The translations under genes and the position numbers were made by a program. The notes under the pieces were generated by a model. The model did not search any database. It had not been told where the DNA came from and saw nothing but the letters and a program-made list of their open reading frames with translations. Below, in pieces: positions 50-57,400 of a stretch of 64,000 bases of DNA. How positions within the stretch are numbered: the stretch's first letter is position 1; every line of letters starts with the position of its first letter. Location: NCBI RefSeq assembly GCF_050920415.1, contig NZ_CP169309.1; one strand, written 5' to 3'. This DNA comes from Escherichia coli (GTDB lineage: Bacteria > Pseudomonadota > Gammaproteobacteria > Enterobacterales > Enterobacteriaceae).

Positions 50-1669
50 ATGGCCAAAGCACCAACTAAAAAAGCCAAAGCAAAAAAAGGCTTTGAAGAA
101 ACATTATGGGATACCGCAAACCAGCTTCGCGGTAGCGTTGAATCCTCCGAATACAAGCACGTGGTGTTGAGCCTCGTGTTCCTGAAATTCATCAGCGATA
201 AGTTTGAAGCACGCCGCAAAAAAATGATTGCCGATGGGCAAGCAGACTTCCTTGAGATGGAAGTGTTCTACCAGCAGGACAACATTTTCTACCTGCCGGA
301 AGAGGCGCGCTGGTCATTTATCAAACAAAATGCCAAACAGGACGATATTGCGGTCCGTATTGACACCGCCCTCTCGACCATTGAGAAACGTAACCCAACG
401 CTGAAAGGCGCGCTGCCAGACAACTACTTCAGCCGTCAGAATCTGGAAACCAAAAAACTGGCGTCACTGATTGATACCATCGACAACATCGAAACGCTGG
501 CACACGAAACTGACGTTGAAACGTTATCGAAAGAAGACCTGGTCGGACGCGTTTACGAATACTTCCTCGGTAAGTTTGCCGCAACTGAAGGCAAAGGCGG
601 TGGTGAGTTCTACACGCCTAAATGTGTGGTTACGCTGTTAACTGAAATGCTCGAACCCTTTCAGGGCAAAATTTATGACCCGTGCTGCGGCTCGGCAGGG
701 ATGTTCGTGCAGTCGGTGAAGTTTGTCGAGAGCCATCAGGGTAAAAGTCGTGATATCGCGCTGTATGGTCAGGAACTGACAGCCACGACGTATAAACTGG
801 CAAAAATGAACCTCGCTATTCGCGGTCTTTCAGCTAACCTCGGCGAACGACCGGCAAACACTTTCTTTAGCGACCAGCACCCGGACCTGAAAGCTGACTA
901 CATTCTGGCGAACCCGCCGTTCAACCTGAAAGACTGGCGCAATGAAGCCGAATTAACCAAAGACCCACGTTTTGCTGGGTATCGTATGCCGCCAACCGGT
1001 AACGCCAACTACGGCTGGATTTTGCATATGCTCTCCAAGCTGTCGGCTAACGGCACAGCAGGTTTTGTACTGGCAAACGGTTCGATGAGTTCTAACACCA
1101 GCGGCGAAGGCGAGATCCGTGCACAGATGATCGAAAATGATCTGATCGACTGCATGATCGCCCTACCTGGACAGTTGTTTTACACCACGCAGATCCCGGT
1201 GTGTTTATGGTTTATGACCAAATCGAAGGCTGCCGACCCGGCCAAAGGTTATCGTGATCGTCAGGGCGAGACGCTGTTTATTGATGCGCGTAACCTCGGC
1301 ACCATGATTAGCCGCACAACTAAAGAGTTAACAGCGGAAGATATTGCCACAATCGCCGATACTTACCATGCCTGGCGCAGCACGCCGGAAGAACTGGCTG
1401 CACGGATTGCGCGTGGTGACAGCAAGCTGGAAAAATATGAAGACCAGGCTGGCTTCTGCAAAGTTGCGACCCTGCAAGACATTAAAGATAACGGCTACGT
1501 TCTGACACCGGGCCGCTATGTAGGTGCAGCCGAGCAGGAAGAGGACGGCGTGGCATTTGAGACCAAAATGCGTGAATTGTCGAAGACGTTGTTTGAGCAG
1601 ATGAAGCAGGCGGAAGAACTGGATCGTGCGATTCGCCAGAATCTGGAGGCGCTGGGTTATGGGGAGTAA
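50..1669 (+). CDS. hsdM: Type I restriction-modification methyltransferase subunit (HsdM)
   Basis: 539-aa ORF with AdoMet-binding motif DPCCGSAGMF and N6-adenine catalytic motif LANPPF; followed by an overlapping specificity-subunit gene. Sequence differs from EcoKI HsdM, so the family is not K-12-like. Confidence 0.9.
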   Translation: MAKAPTKKAKAKKGFEETLWDTANQLRGSVESSEYKHVVLSLVFLKFISDKFEARRKKMIADGQADFLEMEVFYQQDNIFYLPEEARWSFIKQNAKQDDIAVRIDTALSTIEKRNPTLKGALPDNYFSRQNLETKKLASLIDTIDNIETLAHETDVETLSKEDLVGRVYEYFLGKFAATEGKGGGEFYTPKCVVTLLTEMLEPFQGKIYDPCCGSAGMFVQSVKFVESHQGKSRDIALYGQELTATTYKLAKMNLAIRGLSANLGERPANTFFSDQHPDLKADYILANPPFNLKDWRNEAELTKDPRFAGYRMPPTGNANYGWILHMLSKLSANGTAGFVLANGSMSSNTSGEGEIRAQMIENDLIDCMIALPGQLFYTTQIPVCLWFMTKSKAADPAKGYRDRQGETLFIDARNLGTMISRTTKELTAEDIATIADTYHAWRSTPEELAARIARGDSKLEKYEDQAGFCKVATLQDIKDNGYVLTPGRYVGAAEQEEDGVAFETKMRELSKTLFEQMKQAEELDRAIRQNLEALGYGE

Positions 1670-2975
1670 GTGGGAAACAGTTAGACTTGGTGATTTAACA
1701 AAGTGGTCATCAGGTGGAACACCTAATAAATCGGAGGATTCATATTGGAATGGTACTATTCCGTGGATTAGCGCGTCCTCTATGGAAGGTCATTTATATA
1801 GCGATTCAAAGCTAAAAATAACTGAAGATGGCTTAATAAATGGCTCTCGACTCGCCCCTGCTAATAGCATTCTTCTTTTAGTAAGAGGCAGTATTCTTCA
1901 TCAAAAAATTCAAGTAGGTTTGGCTACAAAGGCTGTTGCATTTAATCAAGATGTAAAATGTCTCATAGTCAATAATGATATGATTGATCCTTGGTATCTT
2001 TTGCTATGGTTTAAAGCAAAAGAACAAGATCTACTAAAAATAGTAGAAAGCACTGGGATAGGCGCAGGGAAGCTTGACACTAAATTATTAATGGATTACC
2101 CAGTTGAAATTCCACCAAAAGAGATTAAAGAATATATCCGTTTTTTGGGGAAAGCGATTTTTGATAAAATAACGCTCAACGAAAATATAAACTATAATTT
2201 GGAAAAAATGTCCCAAACCTTGTTCAAATCCTGGTTTGTGGATTTTGATCCGGTGATTGATAACGCTCTGGATGTCGGAAATCAAATCCCGGAAGCCCTG
2301 CAAGCTCGTGCCGAATTGCGTCAAAAAGTACGTAATAGTGCAGATTTCAAACCACTTCCGACGGAAATCCGCTCGCTTTTCCCAAGTGAATTTGAAGAAA
2401 CGGAGTTAGGTTGGGTACCAAAAGGTTGGGAAATTGGAAAACTTCAAGACTTACTTATTTTACAAAGAGGATTTGATCTTCCTTCTACCCAAAGAAATAT
2501 CGGTTTACACCCAATAATAGCTGCTAGTGGCTATAATGGCACACATGACATCGCAATGGTGAAAGCCCCTGGGATTGTTACTGGCCGCTCTGGTGTATTA
2601 GGTAATGTTTTCCTAATCCTTGAAGACTTCTGGCCTCTGAATACAACGTTGTGGGTAAAAGAGCTAAAACATGCTACACCATGTTACGGATATGAGTTAC
2701 TTAAAATGATAGATTTCTCTTCATTTAATGGCGGTTCAGCTGTTCCAACATTAAACCGTAATCATATTCACAATTTGGATTACTTGCTTCCACCAAGAAA
2801 TTTAATTGAGAAATTTGAGTTATTTTCTATGTCGTTATATAGACAAGTTCACGAATTCAAAAAACAAGCCCAAACCCTAACAGCCCTCCGCGACACCCTG
2901 CTCCCGAAACTCATCTCCGGCGAGCTATCCCTGGAAGATCTTCCGGATCTCAGCACCGATACAGAAGCTGCATAA
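1659..2975 (+). CDS. hsdS: Type I restriction-modification specificity subunit (HsdS)
   Basis: Two AT-rich variable blocks (about 1680-2220 and 2400-2850) flank a GC-normal conserved core, the usual two-TRD HsdS layout. Likely start ATG 1659 overlaps the hsdM stop (ATGGGGAGTAA), suggesting translational coupling; the ORF track starts it at 1626. Confidence 0.85.
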   Translation: MGSKWETVRLGDLTKWSSGGTPNKSEDSYWNGTIPWISASSMEGHLYSDSKLKITEDGLINGSRLAPANSILLLVRGSILHQKIQVGLATKAVAFNQDVKCLIVNNDMIDPWYLLLWFKAKEQDLLKIVESTGIGAGKLDTKLLMDYPVEIPPKEIKEYIRFLGKAIFDKITLNENINYNLEKMSQTLFKSWFVDFDPVIDNALDVGNQIPEALQARAELRQKVRNSADFKPLPTEIRSLFPSEFEETELGWVPKGWEIGKLQDLLILQRGFDLPSTQRNIGLHPIIAASGYNGTHDIAMVKAPGIVTGRSGVLGNVFLILEDFWPLNTTLWVKELKHATPCYGYELLKMIDFSSFNGGSAVPTLNRNHIHNLDYLLPPRNLIEKFELFSMSLYRQVHEFKKQAQTLTALRDTLLPKLISGELSLEDLPDLSTDTEAA

Positions 2976-3069
2976 CGCATTTTGCCCCTGTAAAATCAGG
3001 GGCTTTCTGGTAAGGTTTTCTACTGATACGGGAATGCTTACCAGAAATTAGCCAGGGTTGGAGCGCGAT

Positions 3070-6000
3070 ATGAGTCTCTCTTTCAGTGAAGCAAAATTAG
3101 AACAAGCGATCATTGAACTGTTACAGGATCAGGGATATCAACACCTGATCGGCGATAATGTCCCACGTTCAAGTCTCGATCAGGTCATTATCGAAGACGA
3201 TCTCCGTCATTATTTAGCGGCACGCTACCAGCCTGATGGCATTACTGAAGAAGAGATTCAGCGACTGATCAAACAGTTCACCACGCTCCCCGCTTCCGAT
3301 CTTTATGAAAGCAACAAAACATTTTGTCGCTGGCTGGCAAATGGTTTTCTGTTCAAACGCGACGATCGGCAACAAAAAGATCTCTATATTGAATTGCTCG
3401 ACACCCGGCATCTACCTGCCGCACTGCGCCAGATATTTGACGCCGAAGATGTCCCGTTGCAACAGGCGGCGGAACTCCCGCCCTCCTATATTAATCCGCC
3501 GCTTAACCGGATTAAGATTGTTAACCAGCTTAAAATCTCCGGTAAAGATAATCAGACTCGTATTCCTGACGGCATTCTCTATATCAACGGTCTGCCACTG
3601 GTCGTCTTTGAATTTAAAAGTGCGGTGCGCGAGCAGGATGCCAGTATTGGCGATGCCTGGAAGCAGCTCTGTAAACGCTATCGCCGGGATATTCCGCAAC
3701 TGTTTATCTACAACGCGCTCTGCATTATTAGCGATGGCGTAAATAACCGGATGGGCAACCTGTTTGCGCCCTATGAATACTTTTACTCATGGCGCAAAGT
3801 CACCGGTAATGAAAACCGTGAACAGGACGGAATTCCGTCATTGCACTCAATGATTCAGGGGCTGTTTCATCCGGTACGTCTGCTGGATGTGATTAAAAAC
3901 TTTATCTGCTTCCCGGATAAAGCCAGGCACGAAGTAAAAATTTGCTGCCGATATCCGCAGTACTATGCCGCCCGCAAACTCTATTACAGCATCAAGCAAG
4001 CGCGTAAACCTTTCGGTAGCGGTAAAGGCGGCACCTACTTTGGCGCAACGGGCTGTGGCAAAAGTTACACCATGCAATTTTTAACGCGTCTTTTGATGAA
4101 GAGCGTGGAGTTTGCCAGCCCGACCATTGTTTTGATCACCGACCGCACCGATCTGGACGATCAGCTTTCTGCGCAAATGTGCAATGCCAAAAATTACATT
4201 GGCGACGACACCATCGTTCCTGTTACCAGCCGTGAAGATTTGCGTAATCAACTGGCGGGACGCAATAGTGGCGGTGTATTCCTGACAACGATCCATAAAT
4301 TCACCGAAGACACCGAACTCCTTTCTGAACGCAGCAATATCATTTGCATCTCGGACGAAGCACATCGCAGCCAGGTTAACCTCGACCAGAAAGTCATCGT
4401 CGATAAAGAAAGCGGAAAAGTGCGCAAAACTTATGGCTTTGCGAAATACCTGCACGATTCACTGCCAAACGCCACCTATGTTGGCTTTACCGGCACACCG
4501 ATTGACGCGACGCTCGATGTCTTCGGTGAGGTGATCGACAGTTACACCATGACCGAATCCGTTCAGGATGAAATCACTGTACGCATCGTGTACGAAGGCC
4601 GTGCGGCTAAAGTGATCCTGGACTCCAGCAAACTGGAAGAAGTCGAAAAGTATTACGAAGAGTGCGCAAACGCAGGCACCAATGAGTGGCAAATCGACGA
4701 AAGCAAGAAAGCCACGGCTACCATGAATGCGGTTCTGGGTGATGAAGATCGGTTAAAAGCCCTCGCGGAAGATTTTGCTAAACATTATGAAAAACGCGTA
4801 GCCGAAGGTTCCACCGTAAAAGGCAAAGCCATGTTTGTTTGCACCAGCCGTGAAATTGCCTGGGATTTCTACCGCCAGCTTAAAGCTATTCGCCCTGCCT
4901 GGTTTGAAGTGAAGCAAGCCCCCGATGGCGTCGTCCTGACGGAACAGGAGCAGAAAGAGTTACCGCCTTCAGAAATGGTGAAGATGGTCATGACGCGCGG
5001 TAAAGATGACGACGAGGCGCTTTATGATTTACTGGGCACAAAAGAATATCGTAAAGAGCTGGATAAGCAGTTCAAAAACGCTAAATCGAATTTCAAAATT
5101 GCCATTGTCGTTGATATGTGGCTGACCGGTTTCGACGTTCCTGAACTGGATACTATCTATATTGATAAACCCTTACAAAAACATAACCTTATCCAGACCA
5201 TTTCTCGCGTTAACCGTAAACTGGAAGGCAAAAGTAAAGGGTTAGTGGTGGACTATATCGGCATTAAGAGTCAGATGAACCAGGCACTGGCAATGTATTC
5301 CCGCATTGATGCCACCAACTTTGAAGATATTCAGCAATCGGTAATAGAAGTTAAAAACCATCTCGATTTGTTGGGGCAAGTCTTTTACGAATTTGACAGT
5401 CGGGATTATTTTAGTGGTGAGCCGCAAGCGCAATTATCCTGCCTCAACCGCGCGGCGGAATTCGTTCTGAGTACCCAGAAAGTTGAACGTCGTTTTATGG
5501 GACTGGTTAAACGCATGAAAGCCGCCTACGACGTCTGCTGCGGCAGCGAAGCATTATCACAGACAGAACGTGACTATATTCACTATTATCTTGCTGTTCG
5601 TTCAATTGTTTTCAAACTGACGAAAGGTGACGCACCGGATGTTACCCAGATGAATGCACGCGTTCGCGAAATGATTGCAGAAGCGTTAAAAGCTGATGGC
5701 GTAGAAGAGATTTATTTTCTTGGCGATAAAAAAGCGGAATCCATCGATATTTTTGACGAAGATTATCTGGCGCGAATTAACAAGATCAAACTTCCGGCAA
5801 CGAAGATCCAGTTATTACAAAAATTACTGGAAAAAGCAATCAGCGACTTCAAGAAAGTGAACCAGTTGCAAGGGATTAACTTCACCCGCCGCTTCCAGGC
5901 GATTATAGATCGTTATAATGAGCGGCGAGAAGATGATGTACTCAACGGTGAAGAATTCGATACATTCAGTCAGGAAATGACCGATATTATCTATGATATT

Positions 6001-6372
6001 AAAACCGAAATGGGCACCTGGGCCGACTTAGGCATTGATATTGAAGAAAAAGCCTTTTTCGACATTCTTGCTCATATGCGCGATAAATATCAGTTCACCT
6101 ATGACGATGAAAAAATGCTGTCACTGGCAAAAGAGATGAAAAGCGTGGTTGACAACACATCGAAATATCCTGACTGGAGTAAACGCGATGATATTAAAGC
6201 GAAACTGAAAGTTGAACTTATTCTGCTTCTACACAAGCATAAGTTCCCGCCAGTAGCGAATGATGATGTTTATATGGGTGTGCTGGCACAGGCAGAGAAT
6301 TTTAAAGAACATCATATGAGTGCTTTAAATTACTATGAACGCCGGATACACTTTGTTATCCGGCCATTGTGA
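3070..6372 (+). CDS. hsdR: Type I restriction enzyme endonuclease/translocase subunit (HsdR)
   Basis: About 1100 aa; N-terminal PD-(D/E)xK-like nuclease motif (YINGLPLVVFEFKSA), Walker A-like GATGCGKSYT and DEAH-type motif II (ICISDEAHRSQ); GGAG RBS 7 nt before ATG 3070. Gene order is M-S-R, unlike the K-12 R-M-S order. Confidence 0.85.
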   Translation: MSLSFSEAKLEQAIIELLQDQGYQHLIGDNVPRSSLDQVIIEDDLRHYLAARYQPDGITEEEIQRLIKQFTTLPASDLYESNKTFCRWLANGFLFKRDDRQQKDLYIELLDTRHLPAALRQIFDAEDVPLQQAAELPPSYINPPLNRIKIVNQLKISGKDNQTRIPDGILYINGLPLVVFEFKSAVREQDASIGDAWKQLCKRYRRDIPQLFIYNALCIISDGVNNRMGNLFAPYEYFYSWRKVTGNENREQDGIPSLHSMIQGLFHPVRLLDVIKNFICFPDKARHEVKICCRYPQYYAARKLYYSIKQARKPFGSGKGGTYFGATGCGKSYTMQFLTRLLMKSVEFASPTIVLITDRTDLDDQLSAQMCNAKNYIGDDTIVPVTSREDLRNQLAGRNSGGVFLTTIHKFTEDTELLSERSNIICISDEAHRSQVNLDQKVIVDKESGKVRKTYGFAKYLHDSLPNATYVGFTGTPIDATLDVFGEVIDSYTMTESVQDEITVRIVYEGRAAKVILDSSKLEEVEKYYEECANAGTNEWQIDESKKATATMNAVLGDEDRLKALAEDFAKHYEKRVAEGSTVKGKAMFVCTSREIAWDFYRQLKAIRPAWFEVKQAPDGVVLTEQEQKELPPSEMVKMVMTRGKDDDEALYDLLGTKEYRKELDKQFKNAKSNFKIAIVVDMWLTGFDVPELDTIYIDKPLQKHNLIQTISRVNRKLEGKSKGLVVDYIGIKSQMNQALAMYSRIDATNFEDIQQSVIEVKNHLDLLGQVFYEFDSRDYFSGEPQAQLSCLNRAAEFVLSTQKVERRFMGLVKRMKAAYDVCCGSEALSQTERDYIHYYLAVRSIVFKLTKGDAPDVTQMNARVREMIAEALKADGVEEIYFLGDKKAESIDIFDEDYLARINKIKLPATKIQLLQKLLEKAISDFKKVNQLQGINFTRRFQAIIDRYNERREDDVLNGEEFDTFSQEMTDIIYDIKTEMGTWADLGIDIEEKAFFDILAHMRDKYQFTYDDEKMLSLAKEMKSVVDNTSKYPDWSKRDDIKAKLKVELILLLHKHKFPPVANDDVYMGVLAQAENFKEHHMSALNYYERRIHFVIRPL

Positions 6373-6452
6373 ATTAACGTTAATTTCTCTTCCAGATATC
6401 TCCAGTAACGCTTTTATTATTTTCTATTTTTAGCTGGACTTTCCCTGTATTT

Positions 6453-6470
6453 ACTGATGATATGTCCAGG
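6453..6470 (+). promoter_or_regulatory. Candidate LexA box (CTG-N10-CAG) upstream of symE
   Basis: TACTGATGATATGTCCAGG matches the CTG-N10-CAG SOS-box spacing about 80 bp upstream of the symE start; symE is a known SOS-induced gene. Confidence 0.4.
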
Positions 6471-6546
6471 TATTTAGCGCGGTGCGGATGTGCGCCAACA
6501 CACCCGCACCGCTAATCACAATCCCTATTTCTAAGGAATAGTAATC

Positions 6547-6888
6547 ATGACTGACACGCATTCTATTGCACAACCGTTCGAAGCAGAAGTCTCCCCGGCA
6601 AATAACCGTCAATTAACCGTGAGTTATGCGAGTCGCTACCCGGATTACAGCCGTATTCCCGCCATCACCCTGAAAGGTCAGTGGCTGGAAGCCGCCGGTT
6701 TTGCCACCGGCACGGCGGTAGATGTCAAAGTGATGGAAGGCTGTATTGTCCTCACCGCCCAACCACCCGCCCCCGAAGAGAGCGAACTGATGCAGTCGCT
6801 GCGCCAGGTGTGCAAACTGTCAGCGCGTAAACAGAAGCAGGTGCAGGAGTTTATTGGGGTGATTGCCGGTAAACAGAAAGTCGCCTGA
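6547..6888 (+). CDS. symE: SOS-induced toxin SymE (AbrB-fold, type I toxin-antitoxin toxin)
   Basis: 113-aa ORF recognised as SymE, in the conserved position beside the hsd genes. Confidence 0.85.
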
Positions 6889-6934
6889 TACATTGACCCG
6901 GTAGCGCCAGTGCTACCGGGTATTATTCGCCACG

Positions 6935-9028
6935 TTATACCAACGCGCTCTCCATCTGTTTTTCAAATGCCTGACGGATTAATCCCATAATGTAAGGAAG
7001 TTGTGCGAGGTCGCTGAAACCAATTTCTACATCGCCATTGCCCCAGCGCCCAACATTTGTGACATCTTTGGCAATACCTTTCGGATCGACCAGTTCATGA
7101 AACTGCATATTAAGCGACAATCGCAGTCGGCTTTTTTGCGGCACAACATCAACAAAATTCGTTTCCGCTTTAAACGCAATATAGAGCTTCAATACTTCCT
7201 GCGTGATCCCTGCGTCCAGGCGCATAACTTCATCGCGAAGATGATCGAATAACACCCGGCTATGCGAACCATCAGCAAGAAAAGGATAATCACTCAGGCT
7301 GTAACTGGTTTTGTTCTCCGGCTGCGCCCGATAAACAGCTAAAACCTCTTCAGGAAGAGCAGGCGCTTGCCAGACCTGAACCGCGAGATCGGCCAGACGA
7401 TCGGCTCGGGCGTGAATGGCAGCTTCATCCCATTTTTCGCACTGTCCAAGACCGATATTCAAATAGAGCGGGCTATGTTTAAAGCCATCTTCAATATCGC
7501 GTTTTTCCGCGAAAGGTCTGTCACTGTAGCGGGAGTTATAGCGCGTTAATGTGAGATTCCCCAACGTATGCAACAGTTCTTTATGCACACGCTGCCAGTC
7601 GCTTCCCAGCTCTTCACGCCATTTAGCCGACAAATTTTCGTTCTGCGGCATAATGTGCTCAATCGTAAACTCTTCCACGCGCTCTCTGCGTTTATCGTTT
7701 TCCAGTCGTCGTAACCAGTAACTGCGACTGCGGAAGTTATAGAGATCGCGAACTTTTAATTCCCGTTTAAATTCATCATCGTTGGGGAAACGACGATATG
7801 AAGGTAGATTCAGAAAATGTACCTGAATACTTTCCAGATAATTTTCTTTATTAATAACTTTATAAAAAGTGGCAAACGTCTTGTTAAGAGAATTTGTCGG
7901 AATCGCACATACTGCACGGCGGAAAACATAAGATTCAATTGAACGAATTATGCTCAGGAAATCTTCGTGAGACAAATCGCCATTTTTATAGTCATGATAA
8001 AGCGCCAGTAAGAAAGGATACGCTACATCGACCTTTAACTCGCGCAAATCCTGAAAAGCCGTAGCAAGCGATTTGTCACTTTCTTTTCCCAATGCCATTG
8101 CACAGTAATACTCCGCGTAGATGTGAATATCTTCAACCAGCCGATCTACGCCTTTTTCAGCAACACTCTGGCTACGGGCATGTAGTTTAAATGCCTCATA
8201 GACTTCATCTGTCCGAGGGATCTCCCCCGTTTTTACCGTCAGATAATGACGCATAAAACTGTCAAAATATTCGCTGTAACCTTGCTGACCAAAAGCGACT
8301 TCCATTGGACGCCAGTGATCTTCATACAACCGGGTTTGATGCTCTGGTTCGAGGCCCATCAGGATAAAATTGCGCACCAGATCGGCCTGACTTAACGCCT
8401 TACCGGTGGAGTTCATACTTTCAAAAATCAGTTGCGGATTATCCTGGCCACGATTAAGTGCCACATCGACAATTAATAACTTTGCTAACCCACGACATAA
8501 GGGGATCAAGTCATCACCGAGTTTGGCAATTTGCTCATCAAAGAAAGTAAAGTTTTCCATTATTCGATGGGAATAGTTTTCTGGCATTGGTCTTTGTTTT
8601 ATTAACGCCAGTAGACTGTCTTTATCAGTCTCGGTCAGCAGTAATTTAAAACCTTTCTCGCCGGACTCATAAGGATTGAGCAAATAATAATTACGCAATT
8701 TCATTGCCGAAAAGCCATCAAAAACTTCGTCTTCGCCAAGATGGCGCGATAAAGCCTCAATCAGCAACATTGCGGTCGTCAGCCGCTGCTGACCATCAAT
8801 GACCAGCAACGGAGAAATACCAGAAACCTGATACAACCCCTGCTCAATATAAACAACCGAACCGATAAAATGCGCTGATATATCGTCACGCTTTCCGGCA
8901 CGAATGATGTCGTCCCAAAGTTGCCGACATTGTTGCCCGGTCCATGAATAGGTGCGTTGATAAATGGGAATAACAAACTGCTGCGAACGTTTTAAAAAAT
9001 CGAGTAGGCGAGCCTCTGTGGCTTTCAT
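6935..9028 (-). CDS. DUF262/DUF1524 two-domain nuclease, GmrSD-like putative modification-dependent (type IV) restriction enzyme
   Basis: 697-aa ORF; N-terminal DUF262 hallmark DGQQRLTT, C-terminal His-Me-finger-like region (EHIMPQNE...). Sits where K-12 carries mcrBC. Confidence 0.7.
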   Translation of the reverse strand: MKATEARLLDFLKRSQQFVIPIYQRTYSWTGQQCRQLWDDIIRAGKRDDISAHFIGSVVYIEQGLYQVSGISPLLVIDGQQRLTTAMLLIEALSRHLGEDEVFDGFSAMKLRNYYLLNPYESGEKGFKLLLTETDKDSLLALIKQRPMPENYSHRIMENFTFFDEQIAKLGDDLIPLCRGLAKLLIVDVALNRGQDNPQLIFESMNSTGKALSQADLVRNFILMGLEPEHQTRLYEDHWRPMEVAFGQQGYSEYFDSFMRHYLTVKTGEIPRTDEVYEAFKLHARSQSVAEKGVDRLVEDIHIYAEYYCAMALGKESDKSLATAFQDLRELKVDVAYPFLLALYHDYKNGDLSHEDFLSIIRSIESYVFRRAVCAIPTNSLNKTFATFYKVINKENYLESIQVHFLNLPSYRRFPNDDEFKRELKVRDLYNFRSRSYWLRRLENDKRRERVEEFTIEHIMPQNENLSAKWREELGSDWQRVHKELLHTLGNLTLTRYNSRYSDRPFAEKRDIEDGFKHSPLYLNIGLGQCEKWDEAAIHARADRLADLAVQVWQAPALPEEVLAVYRAQPENKTSYSLSDYPFLADGSHSRVLFDHLRDEVMRLDAGITQEVLKLYIAFKAETNFVDVVPQKSRLRLSLNMQFHELVDPKGIAKDVTNVGRWGNGDVEIGFSDLAQLPYIMGLIRQAFEKQMESALV

Positions 9029-9465
9029 CCTGGCGTCCTTCCGTGAAGCAATAATGACGCAATAATAACCACTTCCTTGTGAAGGTTATAGCGAAATCCG
9101 GTTTATCCGCGATGAATTGCCCCCTCACTCCACATCCTCCCTGCGTAACCCAATATCTCTCAACCGCTCATCACTCATCTGCTGTAACACGCGTCGGGTC
9201 TGCATTTGCCGCCGCCAACGCCTCACCGCCTGCCAGAGTTGCACCAGGCCGATAAACGGCGCTTTAGCTCTGTTTTCGTGAAATTCCATCTGCTGCCTCC
9301 TCATCTTTCAGAGGCTTCATCATCCGCCTTCTGGCAGTTCACAATACAGATGCAAATATTAGTTTTATTTAACATACAGACAGGTTAAAACAACATCTGC
9401 ATCCGGTTTTTTAGCCTCATCTGTACCGGTTTTTCTCTCTGTATGGTCCAAATAAGGAGTACAGC

Positions 9466-51002: not shown

Positions 51003-51719
51003 ATGAAAAAGGCTAAAATACTTTCTGGCGTATTATTACTGTGCTTTTCGTCACCATTAATTTCTCAAGCTGCGACACTAGACGTACGTGGTGGATATCG
51101 TAGTGGAAGCCACGCCTATGAGACTCGACTCAAAGTCAGTGAGGGATGGCAAAATGGATGGTGGGCAAGTATGGAAAGTAATACCTGGAATACCATTCAT
51201 GATAATAAAAAGGAAAATGCCGCACTCAATGATGTTCAGGTTGAAGTTAATTACGCGATTAAACTTGATGATCAATGGACGGTGCGCCCGGGAATGTTAA
51301 CGCATTTTAGCAGCAACGGCACACGCTACGGACCCTACGTAAAACTGTCCTGGGACGCGACAAAAGATCTTAATTTTGGCATTCGCTATCGTTACGACTG
51401 GAAAGCTTACCGACAACAAGACTTATCCGGTGAGATGTCTCGTGATAACGTTCATCGTTGGGATGGATATGTCACTTACCATATTAATAGTGATTTCACC
51501 TTCGCATGGCAAACGACGCTATACAGCAAACAAAACGATTATCGCTATGCAAACCATAAGAAATGGGCGACGGAAAATGCATTTGTTCTACAATACCATA
51601 TGACGCCTGATATTACGCCATACATAGAATATGACTACCTTGACCGTCAGGGTGTTTATAACGGCAGAGATAATTTATCAGAAAACAGTTATCGCATTGG
51701 TGTGTCATTTAAACTGTAG
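51003..51719 (+). CDS. nanC: N-acetylneuraminic acid outer-membrane channel NanC (KdgM family)
   Basis: About 238 aa from MKKAKILSGVLLLCFSSPLISQA, with signal peptide. Confidence 0.9.
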   Translation: MKKAKILSGVLLLCFSSPLISQAATLDVRGGYRSGSHAYETRLKVSEGWQNGWWASMESNTWNTIHDNKKENAALNDVQVEVNYAIKLDDQWTVRPGMLTHFSSNGTRYGPYVKLSWDATKDLNFGIRYRYDWKAYRQQDLSGEMSRDNVHRWDGYVTYHINSDFTFAWQTTLYSKQNDYRYANHKKWATENAFVLQYHMTPDITPYIEYDYLDRQGVYNGRDNLSENSYRIGVSFKL

Positions 51720-51738
51720 TAGACAGGAGACAGTCACA

Positions 51739-52845
51739 ATGAATAAAACAATAACGGCGCTTGCTATCATGATGGCTTCATTTGCCGCAAACGCGTCTGT
51801 ATTACCGGAAACTCCGGTGCCATTTAAAAGTGGTACCGGAGCAATTGATAACGACACTGTCTACATTGGTTTAGGTAGCGCAGGTACGGCATGGTACAAG
51901 CTGGATACACAGGCCAAAGATAAAAAATGGATAGCGTTAGCTGCATTCCCTGATGGGGCGAGAGATCAAGCAACCTCTGCATTTATTGATGGCAATCTGT
52001 ACGTATTTGGCGGCATTGGCAAAAACAGCGAAGGCTTGACTCAGGTATTTAATGACGTACACAAATACAACCCCAAAACCAATAGCTGGGTTAAATTGAT
52101 GTCGCACGCGCCGATGGGCATGGCGGGCCATGTGACTTTTGTACACAACGGCAAGGCTTATGTTACTGGCGGTGTTAACCAGAATATCTTCAATGGCTAT
52201 TTTGAAGATCTCAACGAAGCTGGAAAAGATTCAACCGCTATAGATAAAATCAACGCCCACTATTTTGACAAAAAAGCAGAAGATTATTTCTTCAATAAGT
52301 TTCTGTTGTCTTTTGATCCCTCAACACAGCAATGGAGTTACGCTGGCGAATCTCCCTGGTACGGGACGGCTGGTGCAGCGGTTGTGAATAAAGGCGATAA
52401 AACCTGGCTTATTAATGGTGAAGCCAAACCAGGACTACGAACGGATGCCGTATTTGAACTTGATTTCACCGGTAATAATTTGAAATGGAATAAACTTGCT
52501 CCCGTCTCATCACCAGATGGCGTCGCTGGCGGTTTTGCAGGCATGAGCAATGACTCACTTATATTTGCCGGAGGGGCCGGATTCAAAGGTTCACGGGAAA
52601 ATTACCAAAACGGTAAGAACTATGCGCATGAAGGCCTGAAAAAATCATATAGCGCTGATATTCATCTTTGGCATAACGGGAAATGGGATAAATCGGGCGA
52701 ATTATCGCAAGGTCGGGCCTACGGAGTATCATTGCCCTGGAATAATAGTTTATTGATTATTGGCGGTGAAACTGCAGGCGGCAAAGCGGTAACGGATTCA
52801 GTATTGATCTCTGTGAAGGATAATAAAGTCACAGTGCAAAACTAA
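51739..52845 (+). CDS. nanM: N-acetylneuraminate mutarotase NanM (Kelch-repeat beta-propeller)
   Basis: 368 aa from MNKTITALAIMMASFAANA; the track ORF extends upstream into nanC. Confidence 0.9.
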   Translation: MNKTITALAIMMASFAANASVLPETPVPFKSGTGAIDNDTVYIGLGSAGTAWYKLDTQAKDKKWIALAAFPDGARDQATSAFIDGNLYVFGGIGKNSEGLTQVFNDVHKYNPKTNSWVKLMSHAPMGMAGHVTFVHNGKAYVTGGVNQNIFNGYFEDLNEAGKDSTAIDKINAHYFDKKAEDYFFNKFLLSFDPSTQQWSYAGESPWYGTAGAAVVNKGDKTWLINGEAKPGLRTDAVFELDFTGNNLKWNKLAPVSSPDGVAGGFAGMSNDSLIFAGGAGFKGSRENYQNGKNYAHEGLKKSYSADIHLWHNGKWDKSGELSQGRAYGVSLPWNNSLLIIGGETAGGKAVTDSVLISVKDNKVTVQN

Positions 52846-52909
52846 CGCTTCAGGGCCCCAGTAAAGGGGCCCTACTATCAATTTATCATTTCAATTACGC
52901 GAAAATTAT

Positions 52910-53890
52910 ATGAACGCAATAATATCGCCCGATTATTACTATGTTCTTACCGTTGCTGGTCTGTCTAATGCCATGGCGTATGGCGAAGGACTGCCATTAC
53001 CGGACAGGGAAGATACGCCTCATCCCAGAATTAAACAATTAGCGAGATTTGCGCATACGCATCCCGGAGGCCCGTCATGTCACTTTAACGACATTATTCC
53101 ACTGACTCACTGCCCACACGATGTTCAGGATATGCAGGGTTATCACCATCCTCTGGCAACGAATCATCAAACACAGTACGGCACCGTTGGCCAGGCTCTG
53201 CATATTGCACGGAAATTACAGCCCTTTATTCCTGATAACGCGGGGGTTCTCATCGTTCCATGTTGCCGTGGCGGATCGGCTTTTACTGCGGGCAGCGAAG
53301 GGACATATTCAGAACGGCACGGAGCCAGCCATGATGCTTGTCGTTGGGGAACGGATACCCCTCTATACCAGGATTTAGTCAGCAGAACGCGAGCCGCACT
53401 GGCAAAAAATCCGCATAACAAATTCCTCGGCGTATGCTGGATGCAAGGCGAATTTGACTTAATGACAAGTGACTACGCGTCACACCCTCAACACTTTAAT
53501 CATATGGTTGAAGCCTTTCGTAGGGATCTAAAACAATACCATTCTCAGCTTAATAATATTACTGGCGCGCCGTGGTTTTGCGGCGATACCACCTGGTACT
53601 GGAAAGAAAGTTTCCCTCATGCGTATGAAGCTATTTATGGCAATTATCAAAATAATATTTTAGCCAATATTATTTTCATCGACTTCCAGCAACAAGGTGA
53701 AAGAGGGCTGACGAACGCGCCTGATGAAGATCCGGACGATTTAAGCACGGGATATTTCGGTTCAGCGTACCGGTCACCGGAGAACTGGACGACGGCACTG
53801 CGAAGCAGTCATTTCAGCGCGGCAGCCCGTCGGGGGATTATTTCTGACAGGTTTGTAGAAGCAATTTTGCAGTTTTGGAGCGAAAGGTGA
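52910..53890 (+). CDS. nanS: 9-O-acetyl-N-acetylneuraminate esterase NanS
   Basis: 326-aa ORF recognised as NanS/YjhS. Confidence 0.85.
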   Translation: MNAIISPDYYYVLTVAGLSNAMAYGEGLPLPDREDTPHPRIKQLARFAHTHPGGPSCHFNDIIPLTHCPHDVQDMQGYHHPLATNHQTQYGTVGQALHIARKLQPFIPDNAGVLIVPCCRGGSAFTAGSEGTYSERHGASHDACRWGTDTPLYQDLVSRTRAALAKNPHNKFLGVCWMQGEFDLMTSDYASHPQHFNHMVEAFRRDLKQYHSQLNNITGAPWFCGDTTWYWKESFPHAYEAIYGNYQNNILANIIFIDFQQQGERGLTNAPDEDPDDLSTGYFGSAYRSPENWTTALRSSHFSAAARRGIISDRFVEAILQFWSER

Positions 53891-54472
53891 GCGGGGAGTT
53901 TATTCATGGGGGATGTCCTTGTCCGTTCCCAAAACAGGCAACAAAAAACAAATGAGATCAAGGTAATATCTCTTCACTTGCAGGCTCGAACAGCAGGCAA
54001 TTGCCAATATAATAATCTGGCACAAGGGTGAAAAACGCGCACCGCATAAACCGTTGTTATTGCTTAAAGATTAGCCGGATGCCTTAATAGACATCCGCGC
54101 CTTTTCGATTATGGCTCGGAAATCTACGAACCTCTGCACAGTTTACTGGAACGTTTTGGACCACAGCGTTCACAGTACCGACCTGATATGCCGTTCTGGC
54201 GATTATAAGGCGACGGATTCTGGCAAATAGACGATGATAATATGCTTAATGATGTTCAAAGAAATTAGGCCATCATTATATTATTGCTTGCATTTTCTTT
54301 CATTCCCAAAAGCACCCGCCATTAATCCCAGGCGCATTATGCAAAGGAAAATGATTAGGTAAACAATAAGATTTATAATCAGGAAAGGCGACTCGCAATA
54401 AAACGCAAAGTCGCCTTAACATTGGTAAAATATGCCCTTTACTACTCCTGTATCATGAACGGCTCATCACAT

Positions 54473-57400
54473 TTAAAGCTGACGTTGATCCAGACTGCTA
54501 TATATTGCCTTTATTTCATTTTTTACGCTTTCGCCACGGTACACCAAAGACGTATCGTATCGTTGATACTTATCTTCCCGTGCAGCACTGAACCAGTTAA
54601 AAGATCCGACACACAGCAGTTCTTCATCCTCAATCACAATTTTGCTGTGGACACGATTAACCAATTTCGTAGCGATACCCATCTTATTGAGCTTTTCAAC
54701 AGCATCATTCAGCAGATGTTTTTTCTCCTGACGCTTATCATCATCGACATGCGCTATATTGCAGTTTTTATCCGTCACCACAGTAATATCAATGCCCCGG
54801 GAACGGGCCAAAGCCATTGATGCCAGAAATCCCGTTTGCTCCATTTTTTGCCAGGATAACCAAGGGGAAATAATCGTTATTTTCTTTTGAGCTCCGGCAA
54901 GAGTCATGTTCAAAAATTCATCATGCTGCTCCACGCCATGCAGCGTTGAAATTTGTGTATGTGCGGAAATTAAATCCTGTCGTTTATGAAACTCAAATTG
55001 CAACGCATTATTATCTGAAGAAAAGAGATATTTTGCCAATAACCCTCGCGGCGAAAATGCGGGCTGCATCTCGATAAGGTCCATATCGCCAAATACCAGA
55101 AAACTATCTTTAGCGCGTGAGACAGCAACATTGAGGATACTGCTGTTGCTATCAAGAAACCTGCCATCTTCATGTTTTGAGTAGACTGGAGAAAAGAGAA
55201 CAATCGCCCTTTCCGCCCCCTGCAAGGAGTGCACAGTCCCCACTGTCAGTGAACCCTCCTCGTCTTTGCCATTAATTTCCAGCTTACGCAATGACGTTTT
55301 GATAGCATTAACCTGCGCCGAAAATGGCGTCACAACACCAACAACTTTGTACAGTGGTTCCCCGTAATGGCGCTCTATATCATCCTTATGTGCCACCAGC
55401 CATGCTGCTATTGTTTCAGCTTCAAGAGGGTTATAACGGCTCCCCCCATTTGGCTTCATGCCTCTACCATCAATATGTAAATATCCCATTGCGGGGAAAA
55501 TCGTCCCTTTTTCCATCCCTCTTTTAGGCTGCAACTTACCGTGATAGCAAAGTGAGTTACAGTAGCCGATGATGTTATTGAAACAGCGACGATGCTCATA
55601 CAGATACATTCCGCGCTCGAACTTGGGATCATACTGGTAGTGAGAGTTAAACTGGGCTACCTGCATTACGCTGCCAGATGCTGCACTTTTTCCAGACCCA
55701 CACACGTGAGTATATGTATTTATTAACTCTTCCTGAGTGCCACCAGAAATAATATTCTCCTCAAGCATATTGCCCATATCAGTGACGGGTAGACAATTCC
55801 AGATTGGAGCTATTTGCTCCGTATCGCCAATCACCAGCGCTTTCTTCGCCAATGCAAAGGAAGCTGCAGCAACCTCCGGGAGTACCTGCCCGGCTTCATC
55901 GACAATCAGTAAATCAGCAAAGTTATATAAATAATTATTATCCGATGTTCTATCGCCACCAAAAGATTTTCTTCTGTTCATATGGTAAGGCAACATGTAG
56001 CAGGTCATCACCACACAAGGAGTAAGTTTCATTCTTCTTAGCCAACGAGCCTCGGCGATAGTTATCCCGGTAATTCCTTTTTCTTTTTGCAAATTATCTA
56101 TAGCTGCCATATCAATCAGCCAACGCCCCTCCCAATAATGGGTCGCTACCAAGAACGCTGGAAAACGAATCTGAGTATCGGCAAGTTCATCCGCTCCTGA
56201 AAGATTCAATTCATCGTCACCTCTGTAACCCAAAGCATAAGTCAACTCACGCCATTGTTTTGCAGCTTCTATTTCGCGTCGGGCTATATCCTTCGCATAG
56301 TTGATGTTCTGTTGGCACTCATCCTGCTCCTTTTGCGTTTTAGCAATCAAACTATCAATAAATTCATCAATATCTTCGGGATAATTTCCCTGGAACGATG
56401 TCATTCTTGTGCCAAACGTAGAGTCCAGGAAGAGGTTAATCTGGTAATGGCGTTTAGTACGAACAGCAGGAAGCCATGACAAAACCGCATACACTAGCGA
56501 CTCATCAGCACGGTATTGCTGCCACTGCTTTTTACCTCTTGTTAAAAGTGAAATTTCATTGCCAATATTGAGAAGACGTGTGTTTTCGTCCTGAAGATAC
56601 TGGTCGAGATTCTCACTGATGGCTCGCTGTTCATGGCGGATATCATTAAGCCTGCGCCATGTGGGTTCGATTTGCTGAAGTTGAATAAACTGTGAAGTTA
56701 AACGTTCATGCAAAAGCGTCACTACATGCTCTGGTGAATTGCACTCTCCAGCTCCAAACGCCACCTCCGCTTTTTCAAGGTAAAATGCCCGGGCTTTTTC
56801 CAGATATTCCTGGGATTCAACGTGGTTAAAAAAATCTTCAGTCTGGTATTTCTTCGCAGCCTCAACCTGACGGCTTTTAGACGGAAAATAAGCGCCATAG
56901 CTTATTACCTCCGGCAACCAACGACCAGCCATTACGCCAAAACCAGTAGAGAAATCTTTTCCAAAGGCTTCAATAATATTGGTGACGGCCTGATTGTTAG
57001 TTGATGTGGCAATAATTACAGGAGGTTCAGCTTGATTAAGTGCGGCTCTAGTCCATTCGGTGGCGATAATAGAAAGCACCAGCGTAGTTTTACCCGTTCC
57101 CGGAGGACCGTTAACAGCGAGCATATCCCCCTGCTGTTGAGTCAGATAATGGCTCAGGGCATCGCGCTGCGCCACTGCCAGCGGAAACTTATCGCCGGAA
57201 TGCCCCAGACGTTCGCAGAACATAGCATTCTTAGCGAGAAGTGGCTCTAGTGGAACCATTTCATTTGAGGCAAAACGCGTTAATAGAGGAACCTTAACCT
57301 GGCTCATCAGCAGATGGTCATACAAAGGCAGGATATGAACACTGGCCCCTACATGCTGGCTAGCTTTAACAATATAACCGTATCCAGCCCGTTCGTATGG

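What the first reader, a model, noticed from the sequence alone, without database searches (positions are those of the whole stretch)
50..6372. Type I R-M locus with hsdM-hsdS-hsdR order and coupled hsdM/hsdS, distinct from EcoKI
The three hsd genes are present and apparently intact, but arranged M-S-R with hsdS starting inside the last codons of hsdM, and with an HsdM N-terminus unlike EcoKI. The two hsdS target-recognition blocks are strikingly AT-rich relative to the conserved core, consistent with TRDs acquired or recombined from a lower-GC pool. This predicts a recognition specificity different from K-12; which type I family (IA to IE) it belongs to cannot be decided by eye.
Basis: partly seen in the sequence, partly recalled or inferred. 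Interest (0 to 1): 0.5.

Follow-up and report, generated by a model that had tools for sequence, protein, structure and literature searches.

The report
Type ID restriction-modification locus in E. coli
This is an intact, ordinary type I restriction-modification system of the known ID family (StySBLI/EcoMII) at the usual E. coli "immigration control" locus; it carries a rare pair of DNA-recognition domains, so its target sequence is probably uncharacterised.

Summary
hsdM (50-1669), hsdS (1659-2975) and hsdR (3070-6372) are single uninterrupted ORFs in M-S-R order. hsdS starts 11 nt inside hsdM. The window is the E. coli MFDS1022581 chromosome, and the locus is the immigration control region between yjiA and yjiS.

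HsdM and HsdR are 99.6% and 99.4% identical to EcoMII of E. coli EC958. EcoMII is published as an hsdM-hsdS-hsdR operon next to Mrr that methylates AAC(N4)CTTT, with an R subunit 92% identical to StySBLI. The system is therefore type ID, not IA (25% to EcoKI) or IB (27% to the CFT073 system).

About 16% of complete E. coli genomes carry this module. HsdS has the family's conserved regions but two different recognition domains. Each domain recurs elsewhere with other partners, which is classic domain shuffling. The pair occurs in 1 of 5,426 complete genomes, so the specificity differs from EcoKI and EcoMII and I could not determine it.

EcoKI and the IB system also overlap hsdM and hsdS and also have AT-rich recognition domains. 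HsdR carries a 13-residue C-terminal extension from a lost stop codon. Verdict: a new allele of a known kind, low interest.

The parts
50..1669 (+). hsdM, the N6-adenine methyltransferase subunit (539 aa). It has a Lys/Ala-rich N-terminal leader, an HsdM_N domain (aa 16-144) and an N6_Mtase domain (aa 161-499). Motif I is DPCCGSAG (aa 210-217) and motif IV is NPPF (aa 288-291).
   Evidence: The protein is 99.6% identical (2 substitutions) to M.EcoMII of EC958. RefSeq WP_001029746.1.
1645..1669 (+). Translational-coupling junction. A Shine-Dalgarno GGAGG (1645-1649) lies inside hsdM. The hsdS ATG is at 1659 and the hsdM TAA at 1667-1669, giving an 11-nt overlap.
   Evidence: The same junction is conserved in Salmonella, Klebsiella, Enterobacter, Citrobacter and Amphritea loci.
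1659..2975 (+). hsdS, the specificity subunit (438 aa), organised as TRD1-CR1-TRD2-CR2.
   Evidence: RefSeq WP_000535013.1. The exact protein occurs on 85 contigs and stands alone in its 90% cluster.
1659..2198 (+). hsdS N-terminal target recognition domain (TRD1, aa 1-180), GC 0.356. It is 37% identical over 166 aligned residues to the C-terminal TRD of EcoR124II.
   Evidence: It is 99-100% identical in alleles carrying at least four other TRD2 types. It is present at 80% coverage or more in 9 of 5,426 complete E. coli genomes.
2199..2429 (+). hsdS central conserved region (CR1, aa 181-257; ...LFKSWFVDFDPV...GWVPKGW), GC 0.45. This is the spacer helix that sets the half-site distance.
   Evidence: It is 81-100% identical across the enterobacterial alleles of the family. 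The segment from the LFKSWFVDFDP motif to GWVPKGW has the same length in EcoMII HsdS.
2430..2885 (+). hsdS C-terminal target recognition domain (TRD2, aa 258-409), GC 0.371.
   Evidence: It is 85-100% identical in E. coli, Salmonella, Klebsiella and Citrobacter alleles that carry other TRD1 types. It is found in only this one genome among 5,426 complete E. coli genomes.
2886..2975 (+). hsdS C-terminal conserved region (CR2, ...LLPKLISGELSLEDLPD...), GC 0.567.
2984..3047 (+). Two adjacent stem-loops in the 94-nt hsdS-hsdR spacer. The first (2984-3003) is a GC-rich 7-bp hairpin followed by TTTCT and looks like a terminator. The second (3004-3047) is a longer hairpin.
   Evidence: The terminator scan finds the first hairpin. 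The RNA fold gives dG -37.6 kcal/mol, z -4.2. The hairpin-1 stem is invariant and its loop varies in E. coli, Salmonella, Klebsiella, Enterobacter and Citrobacter; the hairpin-2 stem is largely conserved. Function is inferred only.
3070..6372 (+). hsdR, the restriction/translocase subunit (1100 aa). The PD-(D/E)xK nuclease motif D...EFK lies at aa 160-183. Helicase motifs are GCGKS (328-332), DEAH (429-432), TGTP (474-477) and QTISRVNR (709-716). A T1RH-like C-terminal domain spans aa 748-1080.
   Evidence: The protein is 99.4% identical over 1087 aa to the EcoMII R subunit and 91.4% identical to a Salmonella ICR HsdR. RefSeq WP_000058878.1.
6331..6372 (+). 13-residue C-terminal extension of HsdR (YYERRIHFVIRPL) plus the new stop. 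The TAA used by the 1087-aa alleles reads TAC here, and the adjacent stretch is 1 nt shorter. The ORF reads through a downstream hairpin (GCCGGATA...TATCCGGC).
   Evidence: comparison with PSS-12 and NT1W22. The 1100-aa form occurs on 82 contigs, and most cluster members are 1087 aa.

Best explanation
The locus is a complete type I restriction-modification system of the ID family (prototype StySBLI; closest characterised relative EcoMII of E. coli ST131 EC958). It sits at the chromosomal immigration control region of E. coli.

Inferred mechanism, from established knowledge of type I enzymes:
- hsdM and hsdS are translated from one mRNA by coupling across an 11-nt overlap.
- Two HsdM subunits and one HsdS form a methyltransferase. 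It reads a bipartite target through the two HsdS recognition domains and methylates one adenine on each strand.
- Adding two HsdR subunits gives the ATP-driven translocating endonuclease that cuts unmethylated invading DNA.

[quoted passage not shown] Only the two HsdS recognition domains differ, so the system should differ from EcoMII only in target sequence. The spacer region between the two domains has the same length, so the family's spacing of 6 bp between methylated adenines is expected.

The HsdS here is a recombinant of two recognition-domain modules that circulate separately among enterobacterial ID alleles. My tentative prediction is that the N-terminal domain reads a CGAY-like half-site, based on its similarity to the EcoR124 C-terminal domain. 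I have no prediction for the second half-site.
For: Shown here:
- The three ORFs are intact with full domain sets and catalytic motifs.
- The window is 100% identical to the E. coli MFDS1022581 chromosome, where RefSeq annotates the same three genes.
- The gene context is yjiA - brnTA remnant - Mrr-like gene - hsdM - hsdS - hsdR - symR/symE - GmrSD - yjiS, which is the immigration control region.
- HsdM and HsdR are 99.6% and 99.4% identical to those of EC958, in the same arrangement.
- Identity to EcoKI (IA) and the CFT073 system (IB) is only 25-27%, and both of those are ordered R-M-S. The match to EcoR124 (IC) is weak.
- The HsdR of a Salmonella ICR locus with the same architecture is 91.4% identical.
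- 857 of 5,426 complete E. coli genomes hold at least 80% of the 6.6-kb module.
- HsdS conserved regions are 81-100% identical across the enterobacterial alleles, while TRD1 and TRD2 each recur at 85-100% identity with unrelated partners.
- TRD1 matches the EcoR124II C-terminal TRD, E 7e-23.

From the literature:
- EcoMII is an hsdM-hsdS-hsdR operon next to Mrr. Its knockout abolishes m6A at AAC(N4)CTTT, and its R subunit is 92% identical to StySBLI R (PMC4659465).
- The ICR of enterobacteria hosts the IA, IB and ID families at 14%, 11% and 12% (PMC12707154).
- ID enzymes have 6 bp between their target adenines.
Against: - There are no methylation or restriction data for this strain, so activity is inferred.
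- I did not hold a StySBLI sequence. The link to the ID prototype runs through one published identity figure plus a Salmonella homologue.
- HsdR has a 13-residue C-terminal extension of unknown consequence.
- Restriction by EcoMII itself was not tested in the paper I read; only methylation was.
- The CGAY prediction rests on 37% identity and could easily be wrong.
Confidence: 0.9

Rival explanations
1. The genes are a type ID system, but restriction is disabled and the locus works only as a methyltransferase (M2S) or not at all. One possible cause is that the 13-residue HsdR extension, or one of the seven substitutions relative to EcoMII R, impairs assembly or cleavage.
For: The usual stop codon is lost, so HsdR is 1100 aa against the common 1087 aa. 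Seven substitutions separate it from EcoMII R. No functional data exist for this allele.
Against: All nuclease and helicase motifs are intact. The alignment to EcoMII R has no gaps. The 1100-aa form is found on 82 contigs together with the same HsdM and HsdS (88 and 85 contigs), so the trio is propagated as a set with no further decay. The extension lies after the end of the T1RH-like_C domain, which stops at aa 1080.
Confidence: 0.08
2. The system belongs to a family other than ID (IC, IE or an unnamed family) that merely shares the M-S-R order.
For: IC systems also have M-S-R order. I did not have a StySBLI, EcoR9I, KpnAI or KpnBI sequence for direct comparison. Family membership is formally defined by complementation.
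Against: EcoR124 (IC) subunits match only weakly: 135 bits for M and 88 bits for R. The R subunit is 99.4% identical to one published as 92% identical to StySBLI R. The locus is the ICR, where a survey of 9,040 enterobacterial genomes found IA, IB and ID but no IC. RM-finder labels the Salmonella Enteritidis M and R subunits as StySBLI. I did not show that the Salmonella locus compared here is from Enteritidis.
Confidence: 0.02

Closest known systems
EcoMII (M.EcoMII / EC958_0076-0078) of E. coli ST131 strain EC958
   Same: It sits at the same chromosomal site with the same four-gene layout (Mrr-like gene, hsdM, hsdS, hsdR, then symE). HsdM is 99.6% and HsdR 99.4% identical. The hsdM/hsdS overlap and the hsdS-hsdR spacer are identical. 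HsdS has the same N-terminal start (MGSKW), and CR1 and CR2 are near-identical with the same spacer length.
   Different: Both HsdS recognition domains are unrelated (overall HsdS identity 36%). The AAC(N4)CTTT specificity of EcoMII therefore should not apply. HsdR is 13 residues longer here.
StySBLI (type ID prototype, Salmonella enterica serovar Blegdam; CGA(N6)TACC), with EcoR9I and KpnAI
   Same: They share the family by the published 92% identity of StySBLI R to the EcoMII R subunit. A Salmonella ICR locus with identical M-S-R architecture has M 94% and R 91% identical. The expected spacing between methylated adenines is 6 bp.
   Different: I did not hold the StySBLI sequence, so its recognition domains could not be compared. 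Whether TRD1 here equals the CGA-reading domain of StySBLI is a lead only.
EcoKI (type IA, E. coli K-12)
   Same: It occupies the same chromosomal locus between mrr/yjiA and symE and is transcribed in the same direction. It uses the same three-subunit logic, overlapping hsdM/hsdS and low-GC recognition domains.
   Different: Gene order is R-M-S. HsdM is 25% identical and HsdR 25% over a 219-residue patch. The HsdS proteins are unrelated. HsdR is 1170 aa, and methylated adenines are 8 bp apart.
EcoR124I/II (type IC, plasmid-borne)
   Same: It has M-S-R gene order and the closest solved HsdR structure. The N-terminal recognition domain here resembles the EcoR124II C-terminal domain, which reads CGAY, written RTCG in the recognition sequence.
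   Different: HsdM and HsdR are only distantly related (135 and 88 bits). The HsdS conserved regions differ, and I did not see the TAEL repeats described for type IC in the HsdS sequence. IC was not found in the ICR in the survey cited.

Membership tests
Type I restriction-modification systems | Three genes encode an N6-adenine methyltransferase (HsdM), a two-TRD specificity subunit (HsdS) and a nuclease/SF2 translocase (HsdR). | tested here: met
   Pfam, NCBIfam and PADLOC hits for all three. NPPF, DPCCGSAG, D...EFK, GCGKS, DEAH and QTISRVNR motifs are present.
Type I restriction-modification systems | Bipartite asymmetric recognition sequence with m6A on both strands; ATP-dependent cleavage away from the site. 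| not testable with these tools
   This needs a methylome and restriction assays. It was shown for the near-identical M subunit with another HsdS (EcoMII, methylation only) in PMC4659465.
Type ID family (StySBLI, EcoR9I, KpnAI) | High sequence identity of HsdM and HsdR to family members (within-family identities in enteric bacteria are typically above about 80-90%). | tested here: met
   M is 99.6% and R 99.4% identical to EcoMII, whose R is published as 92% identical to StySBLI R. A Salmonella ICR homologue has M 94% and R 91% identity. The link to StySBLI itself is by citation, not a direct alignment.
Type ID family (StySBLI, EcoR9I, KpnAI) | Subunit complementation and antibody cross-reaction within the family. 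| not testable with these tools
   These are the formal definition of a family (PMC2481252; PMC12707154). They are experimental only.
Type ID family (StySBLI, EcoR9I, KpnAI) | [quoted passage not shown] | not testable with these tools
   This is expected because the segment from LFKSWFVDFDP to GWVPKGW has the same length as in EcoMII HsdS. AAC(N4)CTTT is compatible with a 6-bp spacing. No methylome is available.
Type ID family (StySBLI, EcoR9I, KpnAI) | Chromosomal location allelic with IA and IB hsd genes (immigration control region), with gene order hsdM-hsdS-hsdR. | tested here: met
   The locus lies between yjiA and symE/yjiS, the same site as EcoKI and the CFT073 IB system. M-S-R order matches EcoMII and the Salmonella, Klebsiella, Enterobacter and Citrobacter loci.
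Type IA (EcoKI) and type IB (EcoAI) | High identity of HsdM and HsdR to EcoKI or EcoAI; gene order hsdR-hsdM-hsdS. | tested here: not met
   Identity is 25% (M) and 25% over a local patch (R) to EcoKI. It is 27% (M), with no meaningful R alignment, to the CFT073 EcoAI-type system. The gene order differs.
Type IC (EcoR124I) | High identity of HsdM and HsdR to EcoR124I; TAEL repeats in the HsdS central region. | tested here: not met
   Only remote matches: 135 bits for M and 88 bits for R. By reading the HsdS sequence I saw no TAEL repeats in the central region.

The most novel reading that the evidence does not exclude
The most novel reading not excluded has two parts. First, this HsdS specifies a recognition sequence not yet characterised for any enzyme, because the TRD pair is unique among 5,426 complete E. 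coli genomes. Second, the conserved double hairpin between hsdS and hsdR is a dedicated attenuator. It would hold HsdR synthesis below that of the methyltransferase in enterobacterial ID systems, a transcriptional layer of self-protection not described for type I systems.
Probability: 0.3. Interest if true: 0.25.

Novelty: new member of a known kind. Interest (0 to 1): 0.12.

Why it matters
It matters little beyond bookkeeping. The locus adds one more specificity allele to a well-studied family that about one in six E. coli genomes carries. In practice, anyone transforming or conjugating DNA into this lineage would meet a type I barrier whose target is not that of EcoKI, EcoAI-type systems or EcoMII. 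The locus is also a clean textbook example of recognition-domain shuffling at the immigration control region.

Tried and rejected
- **Reference papers.** I tried to obtain the StySBLI, KpnAI and KpnBI papers (PMC60208, PMC524312) and the ICR cassette paper (PMC373321). None is held. Gene order and sequence of the ID prototype therefore came indirectly, through the EC958 paper.
- **Recognition sequence from characterised strains.** TRD1 occurs in only 9-10 complete E. coli genomes and TRD2 in only the source strain. None is a strain with a published methylome that I know of.
- **Route through Salmonella.** P0078 shares TRD2 at 95%. I could not establish the serovar of its assemblies. Its TRD1 resembles that of EcoMII rather than a CGA reader. 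I therefore dropped the idea of equating it with S.Sen1427II (CGA(N6)TRCC).
- **Literature search for TRD-to-half-site tables in E. coli.** It gave nothing usable.
- **Promoter scan.** It found fewer consensus matches than shuffled sequence (8 against 12.8) and none just upstream of hsdM or hsdR. I make no promoter claim.
- **Rejected readings.** I considered IA, IB or IC membership and the idea that the hsdM/hsdS overlap or AT-rich TRDs are special to this system. I rejected all of these.


Full report
**1. What is in the sequence**

They are 50-1669 (539 aa), 1626-2975, and 3058-6372.

Reading the junctions places the real starts as follows:
- hsdS starts at ATG 1659, preceded by GGAGG at 1645-1649.
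- hsdR starts at ATG 3070, preceded by GGAG at 3060-3063.

These match the RefSeq annotation of the identical record. hsdS therefore begins 11 nt before the hsdM stop codon (ATGGGGAGTAA). A 94-nt spacer separates hsdS from hsdR.

Profile searches leave no doubt about identity:
- HsdM has HsdM_N plus N6_Mtase (E 5e-105).
- HsdS has Methylase_S.
- HsdR has HSDR_N, SWI2_SNF2, T1R_D3-like and T1RH-like_C, and scores 467 bits on TIGR00348 against a cut-off of 285.
- PADLOC type I models hit all three.

The catalytic signatures are in place. In HsdM they are DPCCGSAG and NPPF. In HsdR they are a D...EFK nuclease motif, GCGKS, DEAH, TGTP and QTISRVNR.

**2. Where it comes from**

The first 6.6 kb is 100% identical to the chromosome of E. 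coli strain MFDS1022581, a food isolate from Korea. Window and record agree over the whole stretch I checked.

The neighbourhood runs in this order:
- btsT, yjiX and yjiA;
- a brnTA remnant;
- a 388-aa Mrr-type nuclease gene that ends 14 nt before the window starts;
- hsdM, hsdS and hsdR;
- symR/symE;
- a GmrSD-type gene;
- yjiS and yjiR.

This is the immigration control region (ICR). EcoKI lies at the same site in K-12, and an EcoAI-type system lies there in CFT073.

**3. Which family**

| Comparator | HsdM | HsdR | Gene order |
|---|---|---|---|
| EcoKI (IA) | 25% identical | 25% over a 219-residue patch | R-M-S |
| CFT073 system (IB) | 27% identical | no meaningful alignment | R-M-S, with a short HsdM and HsdR and a long HsdS |
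| EcoR124 (IC) | 135 bits | 88 bits | M-S-R |

The decisive comparison is with E. coli EC958. Its ICR carries the same layout of Mrr-like gene, hsdM (539 aa), hsdS (434 aa), hsdR (1087 aa) and symE. HsdM is 99.6% identical and HsdR 99.4% identical to the window's proteins, without gaps.

Forde et al. 2015 (PMC4659465) describe this system as EcoMII:
- It is an hsdM-hsdS-hsdR operon adjacent to Mrr.
- Its knockout abolishes m6A at AAC(N4)CTTT.
- Its R subunit is 92% identical to that of StySBLI, the type ID prototype.

Three further points are consistent with this:
- A Salmonella ICR locus with the same architecture has M 94% and R 91% identical.
- A recent review reports that the enterobacterial ICR hosts IA, IB and ID systems (14%, 11% and 12%) and no IC (PMC12707154).
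- 857 of 5,426 complete E. coli genomes (16%) hold at least 80% of the 6.6-kb module.

I conclude the system is type ID. The caveat is that I never held a StySBLI sequence, and that formal membership is defined by complementation.

**4. The specificity subunit**

I aligned 113 HsdS relatives. The DNA matches in E. coli genomes define the four segments.

| Segment | Residues | Window coordinates |
|---|---|---|
| TRD1 | aa 1-180 | 1659-2198 |
| CR1 | aa 181-257 | 2199-2429 |
| TRD2 | aa 258-409 | 2430-2885 |
| CR2 | aa 410-438 | 2886-2975 |

- The conserved regions are 81-100% identical in the enterobacterial alleles of the family.
- TRD1 is 99-100% identical in alleles that carry at least four unrelated TRD2 types (proteins of 452, 462-464 and 471 aa).
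- TRD2 is 85-100% identical in E. coli, Salmonella, Klebsiella and Citrobacter alleles that carry unrelated TRD1 types.

This is the classical reassortment of recognition domains. Both domains are rare in complete E. coli genomes. TRD1 is in 9 of 5,426 at 80% coverage or more. TRD2 is only in the source strain. The pair is unique there, although the exact protein occurs on 85 contigs of the larger collection.

Both domains differ from those of EcoMII (36% overall identity) and from EcoKI and the CFT073 system (no significant match). The target sequence must therefore differ from all three.

The segment from the LFKSWFVDFDP motif to GWVPKGW in the central region has the same length as in EcoMII HsdS. 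I therefore expect the ID spacing of 6 bp between methylated adenines.

TRD1 matches the C-terminal domain of EcoR124II with E 7e-23. Identity is 37% over 166 residues and 44% over the first 98. That domain reads CGAY, which is written RTCG in the recognition sequence. The Loenen review notes the analogous comparison between the StySKI N-TRD and the EcoR124I C-TRD. A CGAY-like first half-site is a lead, not a result.

**5. Composition**

| Segment | GC | Third-position GC |
|---|---|---|
| TRD1 | 0.356 | 0.27 |
| TRD2 | 0.371 | 0.28 |
| CR1 | 0.45 | 0.40 |
| CR2 | 0.567 | 0.60 |
| hsdM | 0.509 | 0.58 |

It is not a distinguishing feature, however. Four other ID alleles show GC 0.29-0.38 in their recognition domains. 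The variable parts of EcoKI hsdS (0.33-0.37) and CFT073 hsdS (0.27-0.37) show the same dip.

Overlapping hsdM and hsdS is likewise general. EcoKI overlaps by 4 nt by annotated coordinates and is published as translationally coupled (PMC3510504). CFT073 overlaps by 1 nt. Within the ID lineage the junction, including the GGAGG and the position of the stop codon, is conserved as far as the marine gammaproteobacterium Amphritea.

The last third of hsdR is also lower in GC (0.42).

**6.

(a) *HsdR extension.* HsdR is 1100 aa, while relatives are 1084-1088 aa. The TAA stop of the common ICR allele reads TAC here, and the adjacent stretch is 1 nt shorter. Translation therefore continues for 13 residues (YYERRIHFVIRPL) through a downstream hairpin. 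This form is on 82 contigs, alongside the same HsdM and HsdS. It lies beyond the last Pfam domain. Its effect is unknown.

(b) *Double hairpin in the spacer.* The hsdS-hsdR spacer folds into two adjacent hairpins with dG -37.6 kcal/mol and z -4.2. The first is a GC-rich stem followed by TTTCT, and the terminator scan flags it. In five enterobacterial genera the hairpin-1 stem is invariant while its loop varies, and the hairpin-2 stem is largely conserved with most changes in the loop. Amphritea has only a 13-nt gap at this position. Invariant stems neither prove nor disprove structure. My inference is a partial terminator or stabiliser that separates hsdMS expression from hsdR expression.

(c) *Conserved Mrr-type partner.* The Mrr-type gene just left of the window is a conserved partner of the module in Klebsiella, Enterobacter, Citrobacter and Amphritea. 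A second-site copy in strain NT1W22 lacks it. There, homology to the window runs only from the hsdM start codon to 51 nt before the stop codon of the window's hsdR.

**7. Verdict**

The family question is answered (ID), and two supposedly distinctive features are shown to be general.

The system is most likely active, at about 0.9 for the overall explanation. This rests on sequence integrity and near-identity to a demonstrated methyltransferase, not on data from this strain.

It is a new allele of a well-known kind and is already annotated in RefSeq. Interest is low. The only open items are the recognition sequence, the effect of the HsdR extension, and whether the conserved spacer hairpins regulate hsdR.

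Noticed in passing
window 2976-3069 (hairpins 2984-3003 and 3004-3047): The hsdS-hsdR spacer forms two adjacent stable stem-loops (dG -37.6 kcal/mol, z -4.2). The first looks like an intrinsic terminator. In E. coli, Salmonella, Klebsiella, Enterobacter and Citrobacter ID loci the hairpin-1 stem is invariant with a variable loop, and the hairpin-2 stem is largely conserved. Amphritea lacks the element.
   Followed up: partly
window 6331-6372: HsdR has lost the stop codon used by most alleles: TAA reads TAC and the adjacent stretch is 1 nt shorter. It gains 13 residues by reading through a downstream inverted repeat (GCCGGATA...TATCCGGC). The 1100-aa form is on 82 contigs.
   Followed up: partly
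just left of the window (L001 10820-11986, ending 14 nt before window position 1): A 388-aa Mrr_cat/NA-iREase1 nuclease gene lies 63 nt upstream of hsdM. The same Mrr-type gene precedes the hsdMSR module in EC958, Klebsiella, Enterobacter, Citrobacter and the marine Amphritea, so the conserved unit may have four genes. A non-ICR copy in strain NT1W22 lacks it.
   Followed up: partly
window 6935-9028 (- strand): An uninterrupted 697-aa ORF has GmrSD_N, GmrSD_C and DUF5655 domains and a full-length PADLOC match. RefSeq annotates it as a 387-aa CDS plus a separate 'incomplete' DUF262 pseudogene. CFT073 has a 99% identical intact ORF that is split the same way. This looks like an annotation artefact, not a broken gene.
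   Followed up: yes
window 6476-6552 (- strand) and 6547-6888 (+ strand): The SymR antitoxin RNA (Rfam RF01809, 93 bits) overlaps the start of an intact 113-aa symE. This is the same toxin-antitoxin pair that follows hsdS in K-12.
   Followed up: yes
L002 (E. coli NT1W22) 6001-12347 compared with window 50-6321: A second-site copy of the module sits beside IS3 and phage-like genes, away from the ICR. It shares homology only from the hsdM start codon to 51 nt before the end of the window's hsdR, so the three genes move as one cassette with tight boundaries. Some genomes have up to three matching places, and two places are on plasmids.
   Followed up: partly
L001 10522-10623 (upstream of the window): The brnT toxin gene is a truncated pseudogene in this strain while brnA is intact. 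EC958 and PSS-12 have both genes intact.
   Followed up: no
window about 51640-58380: The leuX tRNA hotspot is almost empty of defence genes here. It holds an IS2 copy, a truncated sialate O-acetylesterase gene, a frameshifted fragment of a phosphorothioated-DNA-binding restriction endonuclease, the yjhR helicase gene and tRNA-Leu.
   Followed up: no
proteins P0097-P0107 (Klebsiella, Enterobacter and others, 449 aa): One HsdS group has only about 42% identity in the conserved regions, which suggests a different family. Its two recognition domains are nevertheless homologous to TRD1 (54%) and TRD2 (64%) in the same order. This hints that the same domain pair exists on another family's scaffold.
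   Followed up: no
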